NCBI GenBank assembly: GCA_965287045.1
Contig: OZ336882.1
Span: forward strand, 6,634,001-6,698,000
DNA length: 64,000 bases
Direction: 5' to 3'
Source: Carcharhinus amblyrhynchos
Lineage: Eukaryota
Within the stretch, counting starts at the first letter, position 1, and each line of letters starts with the position of its first letter. Under the pieces are notes generated by a model. It was not told the DNA's origin. It worked only from the letters and a program-made list of their open reading frames with translations, and did no database searches. Below, one piece after another: positions 17,546 through 51,715 of the stretch. The translations under genes and the position numbers were made by a program.

Positions 17546-17875
17546 ACAACAAAATGTTAGATATTGGAAAAAAAAGAAACAGATTAGAGTACTAAATATT
17601 CACAGTAAAGCCTAATATTTGACATTGCATTAATTCCTTATGAAACGCAAGTGGATTGCTTTTTGGCAAAAACGATGTTGGTTAACGTGCAACGTAGTAA
17701 GAAACGATATATTGAGGGTTTTGATAGAACAAACTGGGACAAAAATAGAAAATGCTGGAAATCCAAAACAGCTGGATCAGCACCTGAACTTTAGGTTATC
17801 TGTTTCTTCCAGGTGCTGGTCCTCAAGCTATAATCTTCCAATATTGTTTTCTTTACTGAGACGTGCGATACTCAC

Positions 17876-20386
17876 CTCACCAGAAAAATACGGCCGGCTT
17901 TTCGTTAAGCTTTCAGATTGTTCTGATAGGCATGTTCTATTATTCTTCCTAGAAGACCCAGAAGTTGTTGGACTGACTGGAGCGAAATACATCAATTCCA
18001 TTTTGGTTGCCTCTGGTGCTGATCGAATCTTGTAACGGTATGGTTCTGAAAGAGACCCGTTTCCTCGAACCTCAAGGACGTTAGTAATCAATGTGGAGTC
18101 TGGTACAACCTGAAGGTTGGCATGCGAATTCTGCACTCTCGCTTTGGCCTCTAATTCTCTGGCACAGCAACAATTGGTAAGAAAACAATTCCCAGTGCGG
18201 CCTGATTGTCTTTCGCTTGGGCAAATGACAATAACAAGGACAATTATTATAATAAGAAGTAAAAAAGATATTATTCCCAAGGAAATTATTATGTAAAATG
18301 CCAAATCGGAAGATTGCTGCACATCTCGATGAGGATCCTGAACCTCTGACCGAATTTGTTCATCCGGTTCAATTATAGTGAGTGTAATCGTTGTACTGGC
18401 GGAGAGAGGAGGGTGTCCATTGTCCTTTACCTGGATGACCAGTCTTTGTGTGACGCCGTCACTATCCTTAAATCGGCGAATACTTCTAATTTCTCCCGAG
18501 TTTGGTGTAACTCTAAATAGTCCTGGGTCGGTGGCTTGCAGGATTTGATAAGAGAGCCGTGCATTCTGTCCAGAATCAGCATCAGAAGCAATTATCTTCA
18601 TTACCAAAAATCCTGGCTCTGCAGATCGAGGAACAACCGTCTTACTGTGGTTCACTGCGCTAGGTGTAGTAATGACAGGATAGTTGTCATTCTGATCGAG
18701 AATAATCACATTGACGGTGATGTTGCCAGTAAGCAATGGCAAGCCCACATCTTGAGCTTGAACTCGAATCTTAAAGCTTTTAATCTTCTCGTAATCAAAG
18801 GAGCGCTGCGAATAGATAATGCCATTTTTGGAATTGATTGAAACATATGAAGACACTGGAGCTCCCTGGACATCACTTTCCTGAATTCTGTAGGATATCT
18901 GGGAATTTTGTTCAGTGTCTGGGTCGAAAGCGGTTACTGATCCAATTGAATTTCCAGGTGTGTTGTTCTCGGCCACATACACTGTGTGTGAAGACTGTAC
19001 AAAGCTGGGTCCGTTGTCATTTACATCTGAAACCTGTACAATCATGGTTTTATTTGTGGATAGCGGAGGACTTCCCTTGTCTTTACATGTCACAGTCACT
19101 GCGTATTCCTGGGTACGTTCCCGATCCAGCACGCCGTTTATGGTCAGTCTGTATGAATTTCTAAAGGAGGGGCTCAGCTCAAATGGGACATGTGAGGATA
19201 TCTGACAATCTGTACGGCCGTTATTATGTGCGTCCCTATCTGTAACACTGACAAGTGCTATCAATGTCCCTGTTGGAGCATCCTCGCTGATTGTACTGGA
19301 AACTGGTTTTAAAATCAATTCCGGCTCATTGTCATTAACGTCCTTAATGTCCACCCGAACAGTACAGTGTGCAGATAGTGATGGTGTCCCCTTGTCCTTA
19401 GCTTCCACGTGAAATTCATAAAGATGTATTTCTTCAAAATCCAAATTTCCCTTTACGCTGATTTCACCGGAATTTGCATTAATTCTAAATACTTCCGGTA
19501 CTTTTTCCTCGCTGTAGCTACTTAAAGAATAAACAATGTCGCCGTTGGGCCCATCATCCAAATCAGTCGCGTTCAGTTTTGCCACTAAAGTACCGAGTGG
19601 AACATTTTCCCTTAAACTAGCAACGTACAAGGACTGTTGGAAAACTGGCGCATTGTCATTAATATCGAGGATAATGATGGTTACCTCAGCAATTCCTGAC
19701 CTCTCGGGTATTCCGCCATCAACAGCAGTGAGCAACAAATGTTGTGACGATTCTTTCTCGCGGTCAAGAGGTTTCTCCAACACCAGTTTAGGAATTTTCC
19801 ATTTTCCAAGAGTCTGTACATCTAAGACGAAGTGTTCATTTGGAGTGAGCTGGTAAATTTGGACAGAATTACTTCCAACATCAGGATCCTGTGCGGCCTC
19901 CAGAATAAACCGGGTTCCAGGTGTGGCCGATTCCGCAATCTCCAAACGGATTTCTCTGTTGGAGAAACTGGGGGAGTTATCATTTATATCCACAATCTCG
20001 ACCTCGATATCGTACTGTTCCACAGGATCATCAATCTCAAGTTCCAAAGGCAGAAAACAGGTAAGACTCTGTCCGCAGAGTGTTTCCCTGTCTATTCTTT
20101 TATTCACAAATAATATTCCATTCTGGAGGTTTACATCAAAATATTGCAATGGCGATTTGGAAACGAACCGGAATCTGCGAGTTAAAAGCTCATCTGAATT
20201 TAATGCCAGGTCTTTGGCGATTGTTCCTACCAAAGCACCGTACTCTAATTCTTCTGGAATGGAGTAACGAATCTGCCCCGAAACCAGGCTCCAGGCACAT
20301 AACAGCAAAATGGACGCCGTGTTTCTCATCAAGAAACCCTCTGTACGTGTTAAATCCTTTCCGGGGATGTGTTTTGCGATCCTCAT
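17876..20386 (-). CDS. Clustered protocadherin variable exon 2 (recent paralog of exon 3)
   Basis: The 852-aa ORF has six cadherin repeats, CGQSLTC, a TM and EVRGNGSLSEPYRYKI. Donor GAG|GTGAGT at 17876/17875 is phase 0. A second in-frame ATG at 20329 (MRNTASILLL) may be the true start. Confidence 0.96.
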
Positions 20387-27789: not shown

Positions 27790-30775
27790 GAGTAAAGCAA
27801 TCAAGTCAGAGGGATGTTTCAAGGGAGAAAGGCAAGGCTGGTGGGCCTCTACTTAAATAGCAGGAGTGTTACAGATAAAATGATGAACTAAAGCACGGAT
27901 TGAAAGATGGAATTTTGATATAGTAACCATCGCAGCGACGACGTTGAGGGCGGGGGCGGGAGGTGTGGAGTGGGGGGCAGTGCAGGATTGGCAGCTCAAT
28001 ATTTTCGGATGTAGAATATTCAGGAGAGACAGGGGAGGGTGTAATAGAGGAAGAGACATTGCATTACTAGTTAAGGAGTCAGTTATTGCACGAAGGAAAG
28101 TTTGCAGCTTGGAAGTGGCATCAAATGATTTTTTGTGGATACAGTTTAAGAATAAAAAATGGGCAGTCACATTGCTAGGTATTCATCATTGAACTCCAGT
28201 TGGTCAGATGGGAATTGCGGAGCAAATGTGAGCACAATTCATGGAGGTGTGTTAAAAACATTACCAACAGGACAACTATAATAGGCGAGTTCAACTTTCC
28301 CAACTTTAATTAGCTTAAACATAGTGCTAAAAGTTTGGGTTGTGGTTTTCTAGAAAAATGCACAGGATAACCTTTTTAAGTCAATGTGTGGCTGCTCCAA
28401 CAAGGGACAGTGCAGTGCTGGACCTAATTTTCGGGAACACAGTGAGACAGGAGNNNNNNNNNNNNNNNNNNNNNNNNNNNNNNNNNNNNNNNNNNNNNNN
28501 NNNNNNNNNNNNNNNNNNNNNNNNNNNNNNNNNNNNNNNNNNNNNNNNNNNNNNNNNNNNNNNNNNNNNNNNNNNNNNNNNNNNNNNNNNNNNNGGGGAG
28601 CTGGACACATTTTAGGGACAGCGATTACAACATGGCACAATTTAAGATTGTTATGGACACGATCATGGACAAGTTGCAAAAACTGTTTGAATTGGGGGAA
28701 AACAGATTTAATTAAAATAAGTCAGATATGGCCATGGTAGACTGCACCCAGCTATCTGTGGGGAAATGCACACAAGGGCAGTGGGGGACGTCCAAAAAGG
28801 AAATGGAGAGGATCCAGGCCCCACATGTTCCCTTCAGGCTGATAGGAAAGAGTAATAAGTCCAGAGAACCGTGGATAACCAGAGATGTTCAAGATACAAG
28901 AGCAGGTGCTAGGGGAGTAAATAAATGGAGGCATTAGTGGAGTACAGGAAGGGCAGGGTGGAGTTAAAAAAAAACAATGAGAGCAAAGGGAAGACAAAAA
29001 CGATCTTTGGCTGGCAAAAGTGGTGAAAATCCAACGAAATTCTCTAAATACATCAATGGGAAGAGGATAACAAGGGGAAGAGTAGAGCCCATTACAGTCA
29101 AAGGGGATAATCTATTCGTGGAGTCAGTGGGCATTAGTAGAGTGTTGAACCAGTACTTTATATCCATCTTGACAGAAGAGAATGAGATGAAGGTATGGAA
29201 TTCAGGGAGAGAATCTGCGAAGCTCTTAAGCAAATTGACATAGGGAGTGACAAGTTGTTGGAGGTGTTGACAGACTTAAAAGTGTACAAATCTCCAGGTT
29301 CATTTTCCCATGGAGGAAGTTCCAAGTGCAGAGCAGCTAACGCGGTCCACAACTTGTAGAAATAAGCCAGGGAACTACAGACTAGTGAACCTCACGTCAT
29401 TGGCAGGGAAACTACTGGCAAAATTCTGAAGGAGAAGATCTATCTCCACTTAGAGAAGGAGGTTTAGTCAGGGGTAGTCATCATGGCTTTGTCAATGAGA
29501 CAATTTTTTTGAGGAGGTGACCAGGTGGGTAGAAGAGGGCATTTCGGTTCATCTAGTCTCTATGGATTCCAACGAAGCCCTTGGCAAGGTCTAACATGGG
29601 AGACTTACAAAGAGGCCTTCTTTTGCACCGTAGGGATTCCATGATTCTGTGAAAGCAAATGCACATGGAAATGCAGGGTAATTTGATAAGATAGGTGCAA
29701 AATTGGCTTAGCTTTCAGAGAGAAAAAGTAATGGCAAAGGGATGCTCTTTTGACTGGAAGCCAATGTCCAGTGGCATACCACAAGGGGGATCTGTGCTGT
29801 GTCCCTTATTACTCGTCATTTATGAACAACATAGTTTCCTACAAGGGCAGGATGATTAGCAAGTTCATGTATGACACAGGGATCTGATGGGTGGTTAACA
29901 GTGAGGTTGAGTGCCTTGGGTTATAGGAAGACACGGATAGCTGTTCAGATGGGAGAACAATGACAGATGGAAATTAACCCTGAAAAGAGTGAGGTAATAC
30001 ACTTTGGAATGAGTAATTTGACAAGGAAGAATTGAATGAACGGCATGACATTGGGAAGTATTGAGGAACAAAGGGACCTTGGCATGATTGGCCGCTGATC
30101 TCTAAAGTTAGAAGGGCGTATTCATGGGGTGATGAAAAAGCACATGGGGCATTTGCCTCCATGAGTCGAGGCATAGATTACAAAAGCAGGGAGATCATGG
30201 TGGAGGTGTGTAGAACTTTGTTGCGGCCACAGCTGGAGTTCTGTATGCAGTTCTGGTCGCCACATTATAGGAAGGAAGTGATTGTATTGGAAATGGTGGA
30301 GAGGAAGTTTACCGGGTTATTGTCTGGGATGGAACATTGAGGTTATGAAGAGAGTTGGATAGACATGGATTGTATTTTTTTGGAGCAGAGAAGACTGACA
30401 ACCTAATTGATGAGTACAGGATTATGAGAGACATGGTGAGAGTGGAAAGGAAGTAAATGTTTGCATTAGTTGAAAGGTCAGTCACGAGGGGACACAACTT
30501 CAGTGTGAGGGGAAAGGGTTTAGGAGGAATGTGAGGAAAAACTTTGCTCAACCAGAGGGTAGTGCTAGTCTGGAATGCGTGCCTGGGAGGGTGTTGGAGT
30601 GATTTGGCTGCATCCTTCAAAAAGTACATGGATGACCACTTGGCACACCATAACATTCAAGGCTATAGGTCAGGTACTATTAAATGAGATTTTGCAGATC
30701 ATTAAGATGTTCCTCTCGTGTCGATGTGCAGACAATAAGCCGAAGGACCTCTTTTCCATTGTTTGATTCTATGAT
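27790..30775 (+). mobile_element. About 3 kb degenerate CR1 LINE ORF2 (endonuclease, RT, 3' tail) specific to duplication unit 2
   Basis: QDWQLNIFGCRIFRRDR..RGRDIALLVKE, PTRDSAVLDLIFGN, NPTKFSKYINGKR and a GATTCTATGATT tail; unit-1 colinearity resumes at 30781. Confidence 0.9.
28454..28594. other. Assembly gap (141 N)
   Basis: Run of N inside the CR1. Confidence 0.99.
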
Positions 30776-31060
30776 TACAACCTAACATTTGATACTACAC
30801 ACATTCCGGAGGAAATTAAACAATGTTAGTGGACTGCTTTTGGCTAATATAACATGGATCAGATTTGTTCAATTGCAATGTAGTACGAAACAATACATTG
30901 AGAGGTTTGATAAAATCAAAGTGGGACAAAAATAGAAATTGTTGGAAGTCCATAACAGCTGGATCAGCACCCGGACTTTAGGTTATCTGTTTCTTCCAGG
31001 TGCTGGTCCACAAGCTGTCATCCTCCATTTTTTTTCTTTACTGAAACGTGTGATACTCAC

Positions 31061-33571
31061 TTCACCAGAAAAATATGGCCAGTTTTTCGTTAAGCTTTCA
31101 GATTGCCCTGACGCGCATGTTCTGTTATTCTTCCTAGAAGATCCACTTGTTGGATTCACTGGAGCGAAATACATCAATTCCATCTTGGCTGCCTCTTGTG
31201 CTGATCGAATTTTGTAACGGTATGGCTCTGAAAGAGAACCATTTCCTCGAACCTCAAGGATGTTCGGAATTAACGTGGAGTCTGGCACAACCTGAAGGTT
31301 GACATGCGAATTCTGCCCTCTCGCTTTGGCCTCTAATTCCCTGGCACAGCAACAATTGGTAAGAAGACAATTCCCAGTGCGGCCAGATGGTCCTTCGCTT
31401 GGGCAAATGACAATAACAAGGACAATTATTACAATAAGAAGTAAGAAAGATATTATTCCCAAGGAAATTATTATATAAAATGCCAAATCGGAAGATTGTT
31501 GCACATTTCGGTGAGCATGCTGTACCTCTGACTGAATTTGTTCATTCTGTTCAATTATAGTGAGTGCGATCGTTGTACTGGCGGAGAGAGGCGGGTGTCC
31601 ATTGTCCTTTACCTGGATGACGAGTCTTTGTGTGGCGGCGTCACTATCTTTAAATCGGCGAACGCTTCTTATTTCTCCCGACGTTGGTGAAACTGTAAAT
31701 AGGCCTGGGTCAGTGGCTTGCAGGATTTGATAGGACAGTCGTGCATTCTGTCCAGTATCAGCATCAGAAGCAATCACTTTCATTATTAAAGATCCTGGAT
31801 CTGCAGATCGAGGCACAGCCGTCTTACTGTGGTTCACTGCGCTAGGTGTTGTAATGACAGGAAAGTTGTCATTCTGATCGAGAATAATCACATTGACGGT
31901 GATGTTCCCAGTATGCAATGGCAAGCCCACATCTTGAGCTTGAACTCGGATCTTAAAGTTTTTAATCTTCTCGTAGTCAAAGGAACGTTGCGAATAGATA
32001 ATGCCATTTTGGGAGTTGATTGAAACATATGAAGACACTGGAGCTCCCTGAACATCACTTTCCTGAATTTTGTAGGAAATCTGGGAATTTTGTTCAGTGT
32101 CTGGGTCGAAAGCGGTTACTGACCCAATGGAATTTCCAGGTGAGTTGTTCTCGGCCACATACACTGTGTGTGAAGACTGTACAAAGCTGGGTCCGTTGTC
32201 ATTTATATCTGAAATATGCACAATCATTGTTTTGTTTGTGGATAGTGGAGGATTTCCTTCGTCTTTACAAATCACAGTCACTGCGTATTCCTGGGTACGT
32301 TCCCGATCCAGCACGCCATTTATGGTCAGTCTGTATGAATTCCTAAAGGAGGGGCTCAGCTCAAATGGGACATGCGAGGATATCTGACAATCTGTACGGC
32401 CGTTATTATGTGCGTCCCTATCTGTAACACTGACGAGTGCTATCAATGTCCCTGTTGGAGCATCCTCGCCCACTGTACTGGAAACTGGTTTTAGAATCAA
32501 TTCCGGCGCATTGTCATTAACGTCCTGAATGTCCACCCGAACAGTACAGTGTGCGGATAGTGACGGTGTCCCCTTGTCCTTAGCTTCCACATGAATTTCA
32601 TAAAGATGTATTTCTTCAAAATCCAAATTTCCCTTTACGCTGATTTCACCGGATTTCGCATTAATTCTAAATACTTCCGGTATTTTTTCTTCACTGTAGC
32701 TACTTAAAGAATAAACAATGTCCCCATTGGGCCCATCATCCAAATCAGTGGCGTTCAGTTTTATTACTAAAGTGCCGAGTGGAACATCTTCCCTTAAACT
32801 AGCAGCGTACAAGGGCTGTTGGAAAACTGGCGCATTGTCATTATTATCTAAGATAATGATGGTTACCTCAGCGGTTCCTGACCTCTCCGGTATTCCACCG
32901 TCAACAGCAGCGAGCAATAAACGTTGTGATGATTCTTTCTCGCGGTCAAGGGGTTTCTTCAACACCAGTTTAGGGATTTTCCATTTTCCAAGGGTCTGTA
33001 CATCTAAAACGAAGTGTTCATTTGGAGTGAGCTGGTAAATTTGGACAGAATTGCTTCCAACATCAGGATCCTGCGCGGCCTCCAGAATAAACCGGGTTCC
33101 AGGTGTGGTCAATTCCGCAATCTCCAAACGGATTTCTCTGTTGGAGAAACTAGGGGAGTTATCGTTTATATCCACAATCTCGACCTCGATATCGTACTGT
33201 TCCACAGGATCATCAATCTCGAGTTCCAAAGGCAGGAAGCAGGTAAGACTCTGTCCGCAGAGTGCTTCCCTGTCTATTCTTTTATTCACAAATAATATTC
33301 CATTCTGGAGGTTTACATCAAAATATTGTAATGGTGATTTGGGAACGAACCTGAATCTGCGAGTTGAAAGCTCATCTGAATTTAATGCCAGGTCTTTGGC
33401 GATTGTTCCTACCAAAGCACCGTACTCTAATTCTTCTGGAATGGAGTAACGAACCTGCCCCGAAACCAGGCTCCAGGCGCAAAGCAACAAAATGGAGGCT
33501 GTCTTTCTCATCAAAAAACCCTCTGTAAGCGTTATGTCCTTTGCAGGAATGTGTTTTACCGTCTTCATCAT
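31061..33571 (-). CDS. Clustered protocadherin variable exon 3 (recent paralog of exon 2)
   Basis: The 862-aa ORF differs from exon 2 by about 4-9 aa per EC domain in EC1-EC5 (manual count). Donor GAA|GTGAGT at 31061/31060 is phase 0. An alternative in-frame ATG lies at 33511. Confidence 0.96.
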
Positions 33572-48080: not shown

Positions 48081-49501
48081 AGTTCCTGAGTCTTTTGGAA
48101 TTTTCTTCCACAAAAGGAAGTGGCGGCAGAGTCTTTGAATATTTTCAGGTAGAGGTACATAGATTATTGATGAGTGAGGGATGAAAGGCTATCGTAGGTA
48201 GACTGCAATGAGGCTACAATTAGATCAACTATGATTTTTAAATTGTGGGGTGGGCTCGAAGGTCAGAATGGGTTACTCCTTCTCCTAATTCACATGCCAT
48301 CAACTAGAAAAAAAAATCCTGGGCACAAAGTGCAAGGGTATTCTAATCAGGTGAATTACCATCGTTCCAACCTACTTACAATTATTAGCACATGATACGT
48401 GGCTCCAGCCCTCTTTGCAGCAAATAAGAACAAGAGACCAAAATTCCAGAGTCATGACAAGAGTGACAGCTTTTGACATCAAAGCAGCCTTTGGTATCAA
48501 GGAGCCCTCGCATTATTTAAGTTAATGACAAACTTCACTGGCTTGAGTTATGGCTGTTCAAACGGTTGTAGTCATTGGAAATATCTCAACCCCAGAACGT
48601 TCTTCGGGGCATTTCCCTAGACCCAACCATGCTACTTTGCTTCAACAGTGACCTTCCACAGGAACAAAATAAAATACAGAAACAAAATAGGTCAAATGTA
48701 CTGAATGAACACTTCACCTTAAGGTCAGATATAAGGATATTTGCTAATGATTGTACAATACACAGATATAACAAAACAGTCCAAGCCTGCATGCAACATG
48801 CTTGAGGTAACATTATATTTCGGCTGACAATTGGCAAATAACGTTCAAGCCAGAAAATTGATTAGTAATGATTATCCCAAACAGGTGGCGAAGCATTTTT
48901 GTTTCACTTTTAACAGAGATCACCATTATTAAATCCCCCAGGATCAACAACATGAGTGTCACCATTTACCCAAAATGGGGGAGCCACATAAATGTTTTGG
49001 CGCTATGACCATGTCAAAGAATGTGAAGCCTGAGGGACGTAACACACATCCTGATTCTCTAAATCTTTTTATAAAGCATATCTACAAATCACAAGTCAGG
49101 TGTAGAATGGAATGCCCTCCTGCTAAATGGATATGAATAAATACTCCTGACTGCTATCTCCTAAAAGATACGATAAATGAGTTTTATATGCAATGCTTCC
49201 AATTAAAATAAGCTCCACCTGGCCTTCTTCACTCTCTTAGCTCCTTTCAGTTTTCAAAGATTTACAGTAAGAAAAATTATTGCGAATAGCTGAAATACTG
49301 TTTCAGAATATTTCATTACATTGTCTCAAGTAAAAGTGGGTCGAAATGGTAACGAACTTAACACGATTAACTTGGAAAAATAAGTCAGAAATTGAGGTAT
49401 ATCAGCACCTGATCGTTAACTCCGACTGGGCTAATTGCTCTGCATCAGCGCAAATTCCATTTCTGAGCTACATTGGCTTTGTTTCAATGCATAGCACTTA
49501 C

Positions 49502-49908
49502 CTCATTGATGTTATGAGGCCAGTCATTGGTTACTTTCCCATCACATTCAGATACAGCTGTTCTCTTGTTCTCCCGGTTCGTACCTGATGTTTTTAGACA
49601 GAAGGGTCTGAAAACCATGAACTCGGTTGTAGCTCGTGGCGCCGAATGAACTCTATATTGGTATGCATCTGGAAAGGATCCATTCCCGCATACCTCAAGG
49701 ACATTTGCAACAACTTTATGATCAAGCTTGATAATTCTTCCCCGTTCAGTCCCAAATCTTCTGCGATTTTTCCTACGGATGCACCCCAGTCCTGTTCTTC
49801 GGGAATGGAGTAACGGATCTGCCCCAAAGTCAGAGTCCAGACACAAAGCACAAAAATGGACGATATCGCCGGCACGCTTAGTGTCCATTGACTATCTGAT
49901 CGTAACAT
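49502..49908 (-). pseudogene. Internally deleted (mini) protocadherin variable exon: signal peptide plus EC1 start fused out of frame to the cytoplasmic end
   Basis: ORF 49594-49908 begins with a signal peptide and QIRYSIPEEQDWGASVGKIAEDLGLNGEELSS. ORF 49484-49888 ends NVLEVCGNGSFPDAYQYRVHSAP...WPHNINE|VS. The junction is near 49726, donor GAG|GTAAGT at 49502/49501 is intact, and so is the promoter at 50120. Confidence 0.92.
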
Positions 49909-50085
49909 TTCTTCTGCAGAATAAATGTGTTCGAAGCGCGTGAATGAACTGTTGACCGATATTTTGCATTATCATGTTATTCAGGGCAAGCTTAGAGAAA
50001 CTGGAGGTGTGGCGGATGAGATGTTGCATTTGGTTTGCGTAAGCGCTACTGATACGTTTACATCCTCCCTTTGATGTGACTGGAT

Positions 50086-50162
50086 GGGTGGTGGATTACT
50101 GGCTAGATTTCTTCACCTTATTGGTAGACAGCGACACAAAATGTCATAGCCTATAACTACAT
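50086..50162 (-). promoter_or_regulatory. Pcdh promoter CSE for the mini exon
   Basis: Perfect ATTGGTAGACAGCGACACAA at 50120-50139, plus GGGTGGTGGAT and CTATAACTACA blocks. Confidence 0.9.
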
Positions 50163-50829
50163 GAGATTACATTAAAGTCAAACTTCAATAAAAAAAAGTC
50201 AAAACTAGAAGCTGAATCTTTCTATAACTGAATGTTCTTCGTCTTTGCTTTACTAAAGTGAAAGCAAATCCTATCTCTATTCCAAAATTCTATTGCAACA
50301 AGTTTTGACCCTAAATATGAATCCCATATGCCCAAGCAGGAAACATTCTATAGGTACATTCGTTTAATAATTTCAGCATAGCTGCAGGATTACAGATTTA
50401 AGCGGATATTTCCAGAATAATTTAGTGTTATTCAATACACTTCCAAGACTTACGAAGGTTTAAGGAACATTCTGATAATGTTTCATCAGTTCTCAACTGT
50501 GGTGACCAGAACCTGAAGGAATATACTTGTTGTTACTTAACCAGAGCTTTATACAAGTTCGTCATAACTTTCCTGCTTTCGGAAAATCTAAATTCCATAC
50601 GTTTTACTCTCCAAAAATACATTGCACCTTCAAAGATTTGCGCACTCGAAAGGGTCACATTTCCACTTTAAACTCTTGAGAACTAAGGTATTCCTGGTTA
50701 TCCTACCAGCCAAAACGCATCTCCTCACACACTTTTCTCTAATAAATTCCATCTACTAATTTCCTGCCCATTGTACCAGGCTCCCTGTATCTCGAACTCT
50801 CTTTCCATCTGAAAAAACACTATTTCTCA

Positions 50830-51715
50830 CGACTGGAGATGTTTGGTCTTGAAGTCATTGTTTATCCAATTTGACGCTGACCATCTTATTCAATATGCTG
50901 CAATATGAGTAAGCGACATTTTACTTCATCAAACACTTATCTGAAAATTCGTATCGGCAGCATCCAATTATGTTTCAAGTTTATTTGCAATTTCATCAAC
51001 TTCATGTTGATAACTGCAGTTATCTGGTCTCCACATTCACCAAACGTTTGTCACTTGTTGCAACAATCGCTTGCCTTGCAAAATTTGCAGCTGTTCTACC
51101 CACGCAGAGTAAAAAACGGAACTAACAGCAGCCTGGCAGAGAAAAACAAATTATGACTCTGCGAAGCTTCTGTCGTTAGTGCACTGCTCCAGATTAGTAA
51201 GACTTGTACAACGTGTGCTGGATGGATAGTTGGTGGATATTAGTGCAGCAACTAGGAGACAATCATCAATGACCAGTCCTCCAGAGCGTGAACATTCAGA
51301 GTGGTATTGGAGAGGAGAGGAACAACGGAAAGTTCAGCTGGCTGACTAGGAGGTTCGGAGAAAACAAAACAGCGAATCCCACACCTTCACAGTCTATTAT
51401 GTTCCTTTCAGCCAATGTTGCAGGAGCTATCATGACAGAGTGTGGCTTCTTATCCACAACTGGTGCTGTTTAGTACAGAATGGACGTAAACTAACATTTC
51501 ATGACGTGGAAGGCTGCAACATTGAGTATATAGATTGATATTATATGCATAGCCAGATGCAGGATTGTAAAGGCAATTCGAAAAGTTGTTTTCATACTCA
51601 GGTCTGAAAATACAATTAGTATTCCTTTTATTGACTTCATAACAGTATTATGTGCATAACTTTTCATAGAATGTTCACAACTCAATTTTGTTGGGATTTT
51701 GCTTGAACAGTAAAG
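50830..51715 (-). pseudogene. Decayed Pcdh relic D (EC1-EC3)
   Basis: In order on the minus strand: KGILIV (NGILFV), GVGFAVLFSPNLLV (GTRFPLQSAHDPDV), TLNVHALEDWSLMIVS*LLH (TLDVQNSSDGSKSVSLLLD), and LDAADT...NVAYSYCS (LNATD...DIVYSLSS). Confidence 0.55.

What the first reader, a model, noticed from the sequence alone, without database searches (positions are those of the whole stretch)
49502..50162. Mini variable exon with intact promoter and donor that could encode an ectodomain-less Pcdh isoform or act as a promoter-choice decoy
Seen: about 2 kb (most of EC1 through the TM) is deleted, yet the CSE is a perfect match with both flanking blocks, and the ATG at 49908 and the GAG|GTAAGT donor are intact. 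ATG 49908 gives a 104-aa signal-peptide product that stops about 90 nt before the donor, which should trigger NMD. A second ATG at 49888 opens a stop-free 129-codon frame that enters the true variable cytoplasmic domain and reaches the donor in phase 0. Known: Pcdh isoforms are chosen by stochastic promoter activation and spliced to shared constant exons, and proteolytically released intracellular domains have been described in mammals. Inference: this unit could produce a genetically encoded soluble intracellular-domain isoform, or act as a null choice that absorbs enhancer contacts. Caveats: ATG 49888 has T at -3 (weak context), and a recent neutral deletion would look the same.
Basis: partly seen in the sequence, partly recalled or inferred. 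Interest (0 to 1): 0.8.

Follow-up and report, generated by a model that had tools for sequence, protein, structure and literature searches.

The report
Young deleted shark protocadherin pseudogene exon
One of a shark's many neuronal barcode (clustered protocadherin) genes recently lost its middle 2 kb, and the leftover promoter, start and splice site look like an ordinary young pseudogene rather than a new signalling isoform.

Summary
The deletion is real. A mu-type Pcdh variable exon lost about 2,078 nt, from EC1 codon 61 to past the transmembrane segment. Single contigs span the junction in a second sample (X4) and in a 1%-diverged organism (X5). Two relatives 3-9% diverged keep other sequence there, 1,900 nt in X7. 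Both halves fall in one orthologue clade that is full-length in four other sharks. Both ATGs, the 104-aa and 129-codon frames and the phase-0 donor are as described. The CSE is not perfect: it has a private C>T at 50141. Intactness is expected at this age, and 3 of 10 broken exons surveyed keep a perfect CSE core. The 49888 frame is uncommon (about 2-3% by chance) but shows no sign of selection. It sits behind three better-context ATGs and has two amino-acid changes to one silent change versus X5. No RNA could be tested. Verdict: a young pseudogene, plausibly still transcribed as a null choice; a selected decoy or soluble isoform is unlikely.

The parts
50116..50161 (-). Promoter conserved sequence element (CSE): upstream block 50161-50150, eroded middle block (private C>T at 50141), consensus CGCT-box/CCAAT block 50138-50116
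49892..50029 (-). Upstream ORF (45, 27 or 25 aa from ATG 50029, 49975 or 49969; the last two have A at -3) overlapping ATG 49908 and ending 3 nt before ATG 49888; whether it is in the mRNA depends on the unmapped transcription start
49822..49908 (-). Ancestral start codon and signal-peptide codons 1-29
   Evidence: 65-68% identity of residues 1-60 to three of the four orthologues
49729..49821 (-). Stub of EC1 (codons 30-60)
   Evidence: Pfam PF08266 positions 1-36 of 83, E 8.8e-08
49721..49732 (.). Deletion junction (49729 | one unassigned base 49728 | 49727), about 2,078 nt lost; lies in a perfect 12-bp palindrome
49502..49727 (-). Remnant of the variable cytoplasmic domain (last 75 codons), open in its native frame; in-frame ATG at 49618
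   Evidence: 65% identity to catshark P0041
49594..49908 (-). 104-aa frameshifted ORF from the ancestral ATG; stop 92 nt before the splice junction; cut to 40 codons (W41 to stop) in X5
49502..49888 (-). 129-codon frame from weak-context ATG 49888: about 54 codons of shifted signal/EC1 sequence, then the native cytoplasmic frame, phase 0 at the donor
49496..49501 (-). Splice donor GTAAGT; partner constant exons lie outside the window at G000:C13:6585246-6585188, 6562915-6562839 and from 6407659, with canonical splice sites

Best explanation
A young deletion pseudogene of one mu-subcluster protocadherin variable exon. SHOWN: a single internal deletion of about 2,078 nt removed most of EC1 through the transmembrane segment of a gene that is full-length in other sharks. 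It arose after the split from relatives 3-9% diverged and is shared with an organism 1% diverged. INFERRED: promoter, ATG and donor survive because little time has passed, and the CSE has begun to erode. The promoter is probably still chosen in some cells (about 60%, by analogy with mouse mutants) and the short exon spliced to the constant exons. Most ribosomes would start at the upstream ORF or at ATG 49908 and stop early, so the choice yields no surface protocadherin and the mRNA is a candidate NMD target. Any 266-aa product from ATG 49888 would be trace leaky-scanning output. A null-choice effect would be a by-product shared with other pseudogenes of the cluster, not an adaptation. The gene may have been dispensable before the deletion.
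For: Junction spanned in X4 and X5; 1,900 other letters at the junction in X7; X6 contigs break at the same two bases. Both halves group with P0023/P0027/P0053/P0041 (support 0.998 combined, 0.99 for the 3' half, 0.88 for the 5' half), with no excess amino-acid change against catshark (14 vs 14), as expected of a recent loss. No full-length copy in the assembly (best hit 61%, the neighbour). Neutral survival probabilities are high. 10 of 71 exons in 1.0 Mb are broken; 7 of those 10 keep a CSE within 4 mismatches and 3 keep a perfect 18-mer, two of them despite 5 and 7 stops. The ancestral frame has gained a stop in X5. The 49888 frame differs by G35R, K99T and one silent change, and the exon is no more conserved than its flanks (3/387 vs 12/1114, Fisher p=0.77). 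Three upstream ATGs have a purine at -3, whereas 49888 has T. The long copies in X6 and X7 carry indels, and X7's middle is 178 nt short. Frameshifted and fused mouse Pcdhg exons remain transcribed and spliced (PMC6957209 sections 8 and 14).
Against: The long open alternative frame is uncommon: 0 of 16 paralogs of the same subcluster and 1.4% of simulated deletions, 2.2% of frameshifting ones; 5 of 61 over the wider cluster. The only new stop seen (X5) hits the ancestral frame and spares the 49888 frame. Three substitutions give no power to detect selection either way. Two of X5's 15 differences and 87 differences overall were not listed, so the X6/X7 promoter and start codons are only partly known. 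The indels in X6 and X7 can also be read as frame-preserving (see noticed items), so decay before the deletion is not shown.
Confidence: 0.8

Rival explanations
1. Functional, genetically encoded soluble intracellular-domain isoform: ATG 49888 is reached by leaky scanning or re-initiation after the upstream ORF and gives a 266-aa protein (about 54 novel residues with a basic cluster, 75 variable cytoplasmic, 137 constant) that mimics the gamma-secretase product.
For: Frame open to the end of intact constant exons, no hydrophobic segment (maximum 19-residue hydropathy 1.14). Open in the window, X4 and X5 while the ancestral frame is truncated further in X5. Base rate of such a frame about 2-3%. 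The upstream ORF would divert ribosomes from ATG 49908. Released intracellular fragments are described in mammals (PMC7811963).
Against: Weak start context behind up to three better ATGs, and only a 3-nt gap after the upstream ORF (that this is too short for efficient re-initiation is my own knowledge). Two of three changes in the frame are non-synonymous. Neutral survival at 0.5-1% is 0.88-0.94. The ATG comes from a Gln-Trp codon pair of the signal peptide, the Trp being conserved in orthologues. With the indels listed for X6, this ATG falls in the cadherin frame instead. No such protein was found among the records searched (weak evidence).
Confidence: 0.07
2. Selected promoter decoy: the unit is kept because its CSE/CTCF site absorbs enhancer contacts and tunes how many or which isoforms a neuron expresses.
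For: The CGCT/CCAAT block equals the consensus. Promoter competition for shared enhancers is the working model in mouse (PMC4151104). Two older pseudogenes with 5 and 7 stops have only 2 of 45 CSE mismatches.
Against: The CSE has a change at a position that is C in 15 of 16 paralogs. Across the other 9 broken exons CSE decay runs from 1/33 to 15/33 mismatches, a gradient that looks like ageing. Survival of the 23-nt block is 0.50-0.89 under neutrality. That shark mu exons are chosen stochastically by CTCF looping is an extrapolation from mammals.
Confidence: 0.08
3. Chimera of two adjacent variable exons made by unequal crossing-over, fusing the 5' end of one to the 3' end of another.
For: The 5' half alone is placed with only moderate support (0.88), and another shark orthologue group (P0044/P0048/P0055) has no member among the 10 own exons in the tree.
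Against: One X7 contig carries both sides 1,900 letters apart with no shared letters at the joint, and both halves group with the same clade.
Confidence: 0.02
4. Assembly collapse or private allele.
For: X4 belongs to the same study as the possible source sample.
Against: X4 (another sample, 2 differences) and X5 (another study, 15 differences and a 3-nt insertion) each span the junction in one contig at uniform depth. No full-length copy in G000.
Confidence: 0.01

Closest known systems
Clustered protocadherin pseudogenes / degenerate variable exons (14 pseudogenes beside 71 intact exons in anole, PMC2764143; intervening pseudogenes in human, PMC8787164)
   Same: Broken variable exon in a tandem array, lineage-specific loss of a gene intact elsewhere; a similar share here (10 broken of 71 surveyed).
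   Different: The lesion is one large internal deletion rather than point lesions (half of the anole cases are single-base indels), and a shifted frame happens to reach the donor.
Chondrichthyan Pcdh mu subcluster (elephant shark Pcdh mu5 and mu7, P0024 and P0119)
   Same: Same constant region and same exon family.
   Different: No ectodomain or transmembrane segment; orthologues of this exon are full-length (820-922 aa models).
CRISPR-made mouse Pcdhg frameshift and fusion alleles (PMC6957209)
   Same: Promoter and donor intact with the reading frame broken; such exons are transcribed and spliced, giving a null choice.
   Different: Engineered, mammalian gamma cluster; here natural, and expression is untested.
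Proteolytically released Pcdh alpha/gamma intracellular fragment (PMC7811963)
   Same: The hypothetical 266-aa product would hold variable plus constant cytoplasmic sequence without a membrane anchor.
   Different: Made by cleavage of a surface protein, not from a separate exon; lacks a shifted-frame N-terminus; here only predicted.
Short human PCDHA/PCDHG splice variants that use a donor inside the variable exon (recalled from memory; not found in searches)
   Same: Transcripts that join the start of a variable exon to the constant exons without most ectodomains.
   Different: As recalled, they arise by alternative splicing of an intact exon and keep the signal-peptide frame; not verified here.

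Membership tests
Clustered Pcdh variable exon (mu subcluster), by descent | Homology to variable exons and place in the tandem array upstream of shared constant exons | tested here: met
   lies between two intact exons; constant exons start about 98 kb downstream
Clustered Pcdh variable exon (mu subcluster), by descent | CSE with CGCT box about 200 bp upstream of the ATG | tested here: met
   block starts 230 nt upstream; one private change at 50141; defining text in PMC4978886
Clustered Pcdh variable exon (mu subcluster), by descent | Phase-0 donor after the variable cytoplasmic domain | tested here: met
Functional clustered Pcdh isoform | Signal peptide, six cadherin repeats, transmembrane segment and cytoplasmic tail in one frame | tested here: not met
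   only 36 of 83 positions of the first repeat, then a frameshift
Pseudogene (deletion relic) | Disabling lesion in a gene intact in relatives, with no intact copy in the genome | tested here: met
Pseudogene (deletion relic) | Neutral sequence evolution after the lesion | tested here: inconclusive
   3 exon changes versus X5, Fisher p=0.77 against flanks, one new stop in the ancestral frame; too few changes for power
Encoded soluble intracellular-domain isoform | Open frame from an ATG through the constant exons, without a membrane segment | tested here: met
   266 aa
Encoded soluble intracellular-domain isoform | Spliced transcript and translation from ATG 49888 | not testable with these tools
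   one search listed no RNA run holding the stretch; only DNA-type contigs were laid
Encoded soluble intracellular-domain isoform | Frame conserved under purifying selection | tested here: inconclusive
   open in X4 and X5, 2 non-synonymous to 1 synonymous change; neutral survival 0.88-0.94
Promoter-choice decoy | CTCF occupancy, enhancer contact and effect on neighbouring isoforms | not testable with these tools
   no chromatin data
Promoter-choice decoy | CSE conserved beyond neutral expectation | tested here: inconclusive
   4/40 mismatches, at the top of the intact range; age too low for a test

The most novel reading that the evidence does not exclude
A recent deletion turned a surface protocadherin exon into a promoter-chosen source of a soluble cytoplasmic-domain protein: the upstream ORF steers ribosomes past the dead signal-peptide start to ATG 49888, so neurons that pick this promoter get Pcdh intracellular signalling, possibly nuclear through the basic clusters, without adhesion or proteolysis.
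Probability: 0.07. Interest if true: 0.7.

Novelty: new member of a known kind. Interest (0 to 1): 0.2.

Why it matters
As a young pseudogene it is one more case of birth-and-death in Pcdh clusters, here bracketed between taxa 1% and 3-9% diverged. Its modest value is as a natural allele: carriers and non-carriers could show whether a dead exon with a live promoter costs a neuron one of its choices. If the 49888 product were made and conserved, it would be an encoded adhesion-free Pcdh signalling isoform, of which I found no report in the library searched (most subscription papers are not held).

Tried and rejected
No RNA holder was listed for 48500-51500; this says nothing on expression. Only 4 of 18 runs could be laid; the possible source runs X1-X3 were not. 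The protein-representative search with the 129-codon frame gave one hit, P0121, a Pseudomonas Ig-like repeat protein at 28% identity that BLASTP does not align to the Pcdh halves; rejected as spurious. A search for longer proteins found only the catshark orthologue. Neither window ORF is in the protein collection by exact sequence. A scan for a second CSE-like site inside exons, which the deletion might have removed as with the exonic CTCF site of mammalian Pcdh-alpha, found none in 17 exons (best score -6.9). The matrix was built from promoters and would miss a divergent site, so this is inconclusive. The relative-rate test showed no excess decay (14 vs 14), so a long-dead gene is rejected. 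Three look-ups of earlier findings returned nothing. Its simulation used the 8 of 16 exons with a called donor, one of them doubtful, and the 40-codon threshold was chosen after seeing the case. PMC4977153 (passages) held nothing relevant. No supplements were read.

Full report
Setting. The window is G000:C13:6634001-6698000 of a 2.92-Gb genome. It holds five intact protocadherin variable exons on the minus strand. Their best named matches are shark and ray proteins; two are 91% identical to a Mustelus protein. The constant exons annotated on such proteins, which match the tails of elephant shark Pcdh mu5 and mu7, lie downstream at C13:6585246-6585188, 6562915-6562839 and from 6407659, with canonical splice sites. 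So this is the mu-type subcluster of a shark. The subcluster names come second-hand from passages of PMC2764143 and PMC4978886; I did not read the original elephant shark paper.

Observation. ATG 49908 gives 104 aa ending 92 nt before the donor. ATG 49888 is open for 129 codons to a phase-0 GAG|GTAAGT donor. Residues 1-60 are a signal peptide plus an EC1 stub (Pfam PF08266 positions 1-36 of 83), and the last 75 codons are variable cytoplasmic sequence. Joined to the constant exons, the 49888 frame gives 266 aa with no hydrophobic segment. Two corrections apply. First, the CSE has a perfect 3' block but a T at 50141 where 15 of 16 intact paralogs have C and none T. It also has a one-base gap upstream and 4 of 40 mismatches against 0-4 in the 7 nearest intact exons. 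Second, an upstream ORF (ATGs 50029, 49975, 49969) overlaps ATG 49908 and stops 3 nt before ATG 49888. Upstream ATGs are common in the paralogs too (15 of 16).

Is the deletion real, and how old? I laid 4 of the 18 listed runs, all assembled contigs. X4, a second sample of the same study, spans 49000-50500 in one contig with 2 differences. X5, organism A from another study, spans it in one contig with 15 differences and a 3-nt insertion (1.0%). In X7 (organism C, 5.6-6.9% diverged) one contig matches up to 49729 and from 49727, with 1,900 other letters between. In X6 (organism B, 3.4-9.1% by piece) two contigs stop matching at the same two bases and run on. So the deletion is germline, shared, and younger than the split from B and C. 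Four named shark proteins (catshark P0041, horn shark P0027, sawshark P0023, bamboo shark P0053) form one clade with both halves (support 0.998 on the combined columns). They put the lost part at 2,078 nt (2,072 in bamboo shark). All four are single-exon read-through models, so they show an intact frame but not splicing. G000 holds no full-length copy: the best match to P0041 is the neighbour at 61% (a search with a stricter first look). Amino-acid changes unique to the relic equal those unique to catshark, 14 and 14, as expected if the loss is recent.

Does the intact promoter mean selection? No. For a branch of 0.5-3% substitutions, neutral survival is 0.89-0.50 for the 23-nt CSE block, 0.96-0.79 for the donor region and 0.94-0.68 for the 129-codon frame. 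I surveyed C13:5930001-6280000 and 6400001-7058000; the rest of the cluster was not surveyed. It gave 73 match units: 61 intact exons and 12 broken pieces, which are 10 broken exons because two are split by insertions. Seven of the 10 keep a CSE within 4 mismatches of an 18-mer. Three keep it perfectly: this one and two with 5 and 7 stops. Across the other nine, mismatches at near-invariant columns run from 1/33 to 15/33. A dead exon with a good-looking CSE is therefore routine here. The two older cases with 2/45 mismatches leave some room for constraint on CSEs in pseudogenes generally.

Is the 49888 frame special? Such a frame (ATG, at least 40 open codons to the junction) occurs in 0 of 16 paralogs of this subcluster and in 1.4% of 12,000 simulated deletions, 2.2% of the frameshifting ones. 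Any rescuing upstream ATG occurs in 19% of frameshifting deletions (8 of 16 exons used, threshold chosen after the fact). Over 61 intact exons, 5 have the same shifted frame open for 39-47 codons, about 3% after allowing for phase. It is thus a coincidence of about one in forty. Against function, the ATG is formed by the Gln-Trp codons of the signal peptide, and the Trp is conserved in the three orthologues that extend that far. It has T at -3 and lies behind ATGs 49975, 49969 and 49908, all with a purine at -3. Versus X5 the frame has G35R, K99T and one silent change; K99T also separates the window from X4, so K99 is the window's own variant. The exon is no more conserved than the flanks (3/387 vs 12/1114, p=0.77; this counts X5's 2 unlisted differences as flank, which I could not check). 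In X5 the ancestral frame has a stop at codon 41. That fits decay, but it is also what a switch of frame would allow. With only the listed X6 changes applied, a net 4-nt loss closes the 49908 frame and puts ATG 49888 in the cadherin frame, so the shifted frame is not a shared feature there. 87 differences were not shown, so the X6/X7 readings are partial.

Mechanism. Shown: the lesion, its age bracket, the frames and the intact constant exons. Inferred from mammals: the CSE binds CTCF and promoters compete for shared enhancers (passages of PMC7811963, PMC4151104 and PMC8787164). In mouse Pcdhg, small indels generally did not lower transcript levels and fused variable exons were transcribed and spliced (PMC6957209, sections 8 and 14 read in full, other passages seen). 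So this promoter may well still fire. For Pcdh-alpha, a paper title seen only in a reference list reports NMD of frameshifted transcripts (Kaneko 2009). A stop 92 nt before the first junction meets the usual 50-55-nt rule (own knowledge), but the mouse gamma data show that decay is not guaranteed. The likely outcome is a choice that puts no protocadherin on the surface, with at most trace soluble product. Whether the mu subcluster is chosen stochastically in sharks is untested.

Comparison and novelty. Degenerate variable exons are a known feature of Pcdh clusters (14 beside 71 intact in anole). This is a new member of that kind. It works like a null allele and fails the membership test for a functional isoform. 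I found no paper on this exon or on an encoded ectodomain-less variable exon in nine searches of the held library, which lacks most subscription papers; no supplements were read. Short human splice variants lacking ectodomains are recalled from memory and unverified.

Verdict. Real, shared, young deletion pseudogene (0.80); selected decoy 0.08; functional soluble isoform 0.07; chimera 0.02; artefact 0.01. Interest 0.2. RNA and ribosome data would settle the open part.

Noticed in passing
run X7 (organism C) laid on window 49502-49908: The long copy is 178 nt shorter than the orthologues in its middle and has +1 nt at 49605, so ATG-to-donor is exactly 769 codons. The insertion lies about 10 nt before the stop of the shifted frame, which could be a compensating frameshift pair or chance (1 in 3). 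The middle could not be read.
   Followed up: partly
run X6 (organism B) laid on window 49884-49895 and 49757: A net 4-nt loss closes the 49908 frame and brings ATG 49888 into the cadherin frame, giving a shorter signal peptide, plus an in-frame 3-nt loss. This may be a start-codon switch in a working gene, or decay. Depth 5.5, partial differences only.
   Followed up: partly
window 49721-49732: The junction sits in a perfect 12-bp palindrome; such palindromes occur 29 times in the 64-kb window. The conserved Pro before the Asp reads Leu here, so fold-back templated repair is a possibility.
   Followed up: partly
G000:C13:6244878 and 6182736: Two pseudogenes with 5 and 7 stops plus frameshifts keep CSEs with only 2 of 45 mismatches. 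The second has a C>T at the same CSE position as the mini exon, and the first also has an internal deletion of about 390 nt.
   Followed up: partly
G000:C13:7025562/7016834 and 7043719/7042042: Two variable exons are split by insertions of about 7 kb and 1.2 kb; the inserts were not identified.
   Followed up: no
tree: A second shark orthologue group (P0044, P0048, P0055) has no member among the 10 own exons included, so another mu-type gene may be wholly lost in this lineage.
   Followed up: no
window 17828-20386 and 30983-33571: These two exons are 91% identical to each other and each 91% to one Mustelus protein; they group together in the tree, suggesting a lineage-specific duplicate.
   Followed up: partly
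G000:C13:5932551-6144438: 26 of the 28 intact exons of this subcluster have no match to the mu-type CSE 18-mer within 4 mismatches, so they use a divergent promoter element.
   Followed up: no
G000:C13:6725837: An intact exon whose CSE is by far the most divergent of the 17 scored (score 18.9 against 52-85).
   Followed up: no
window 28454-28594: A run of 141 N, far from the finding.
   Followed up: no
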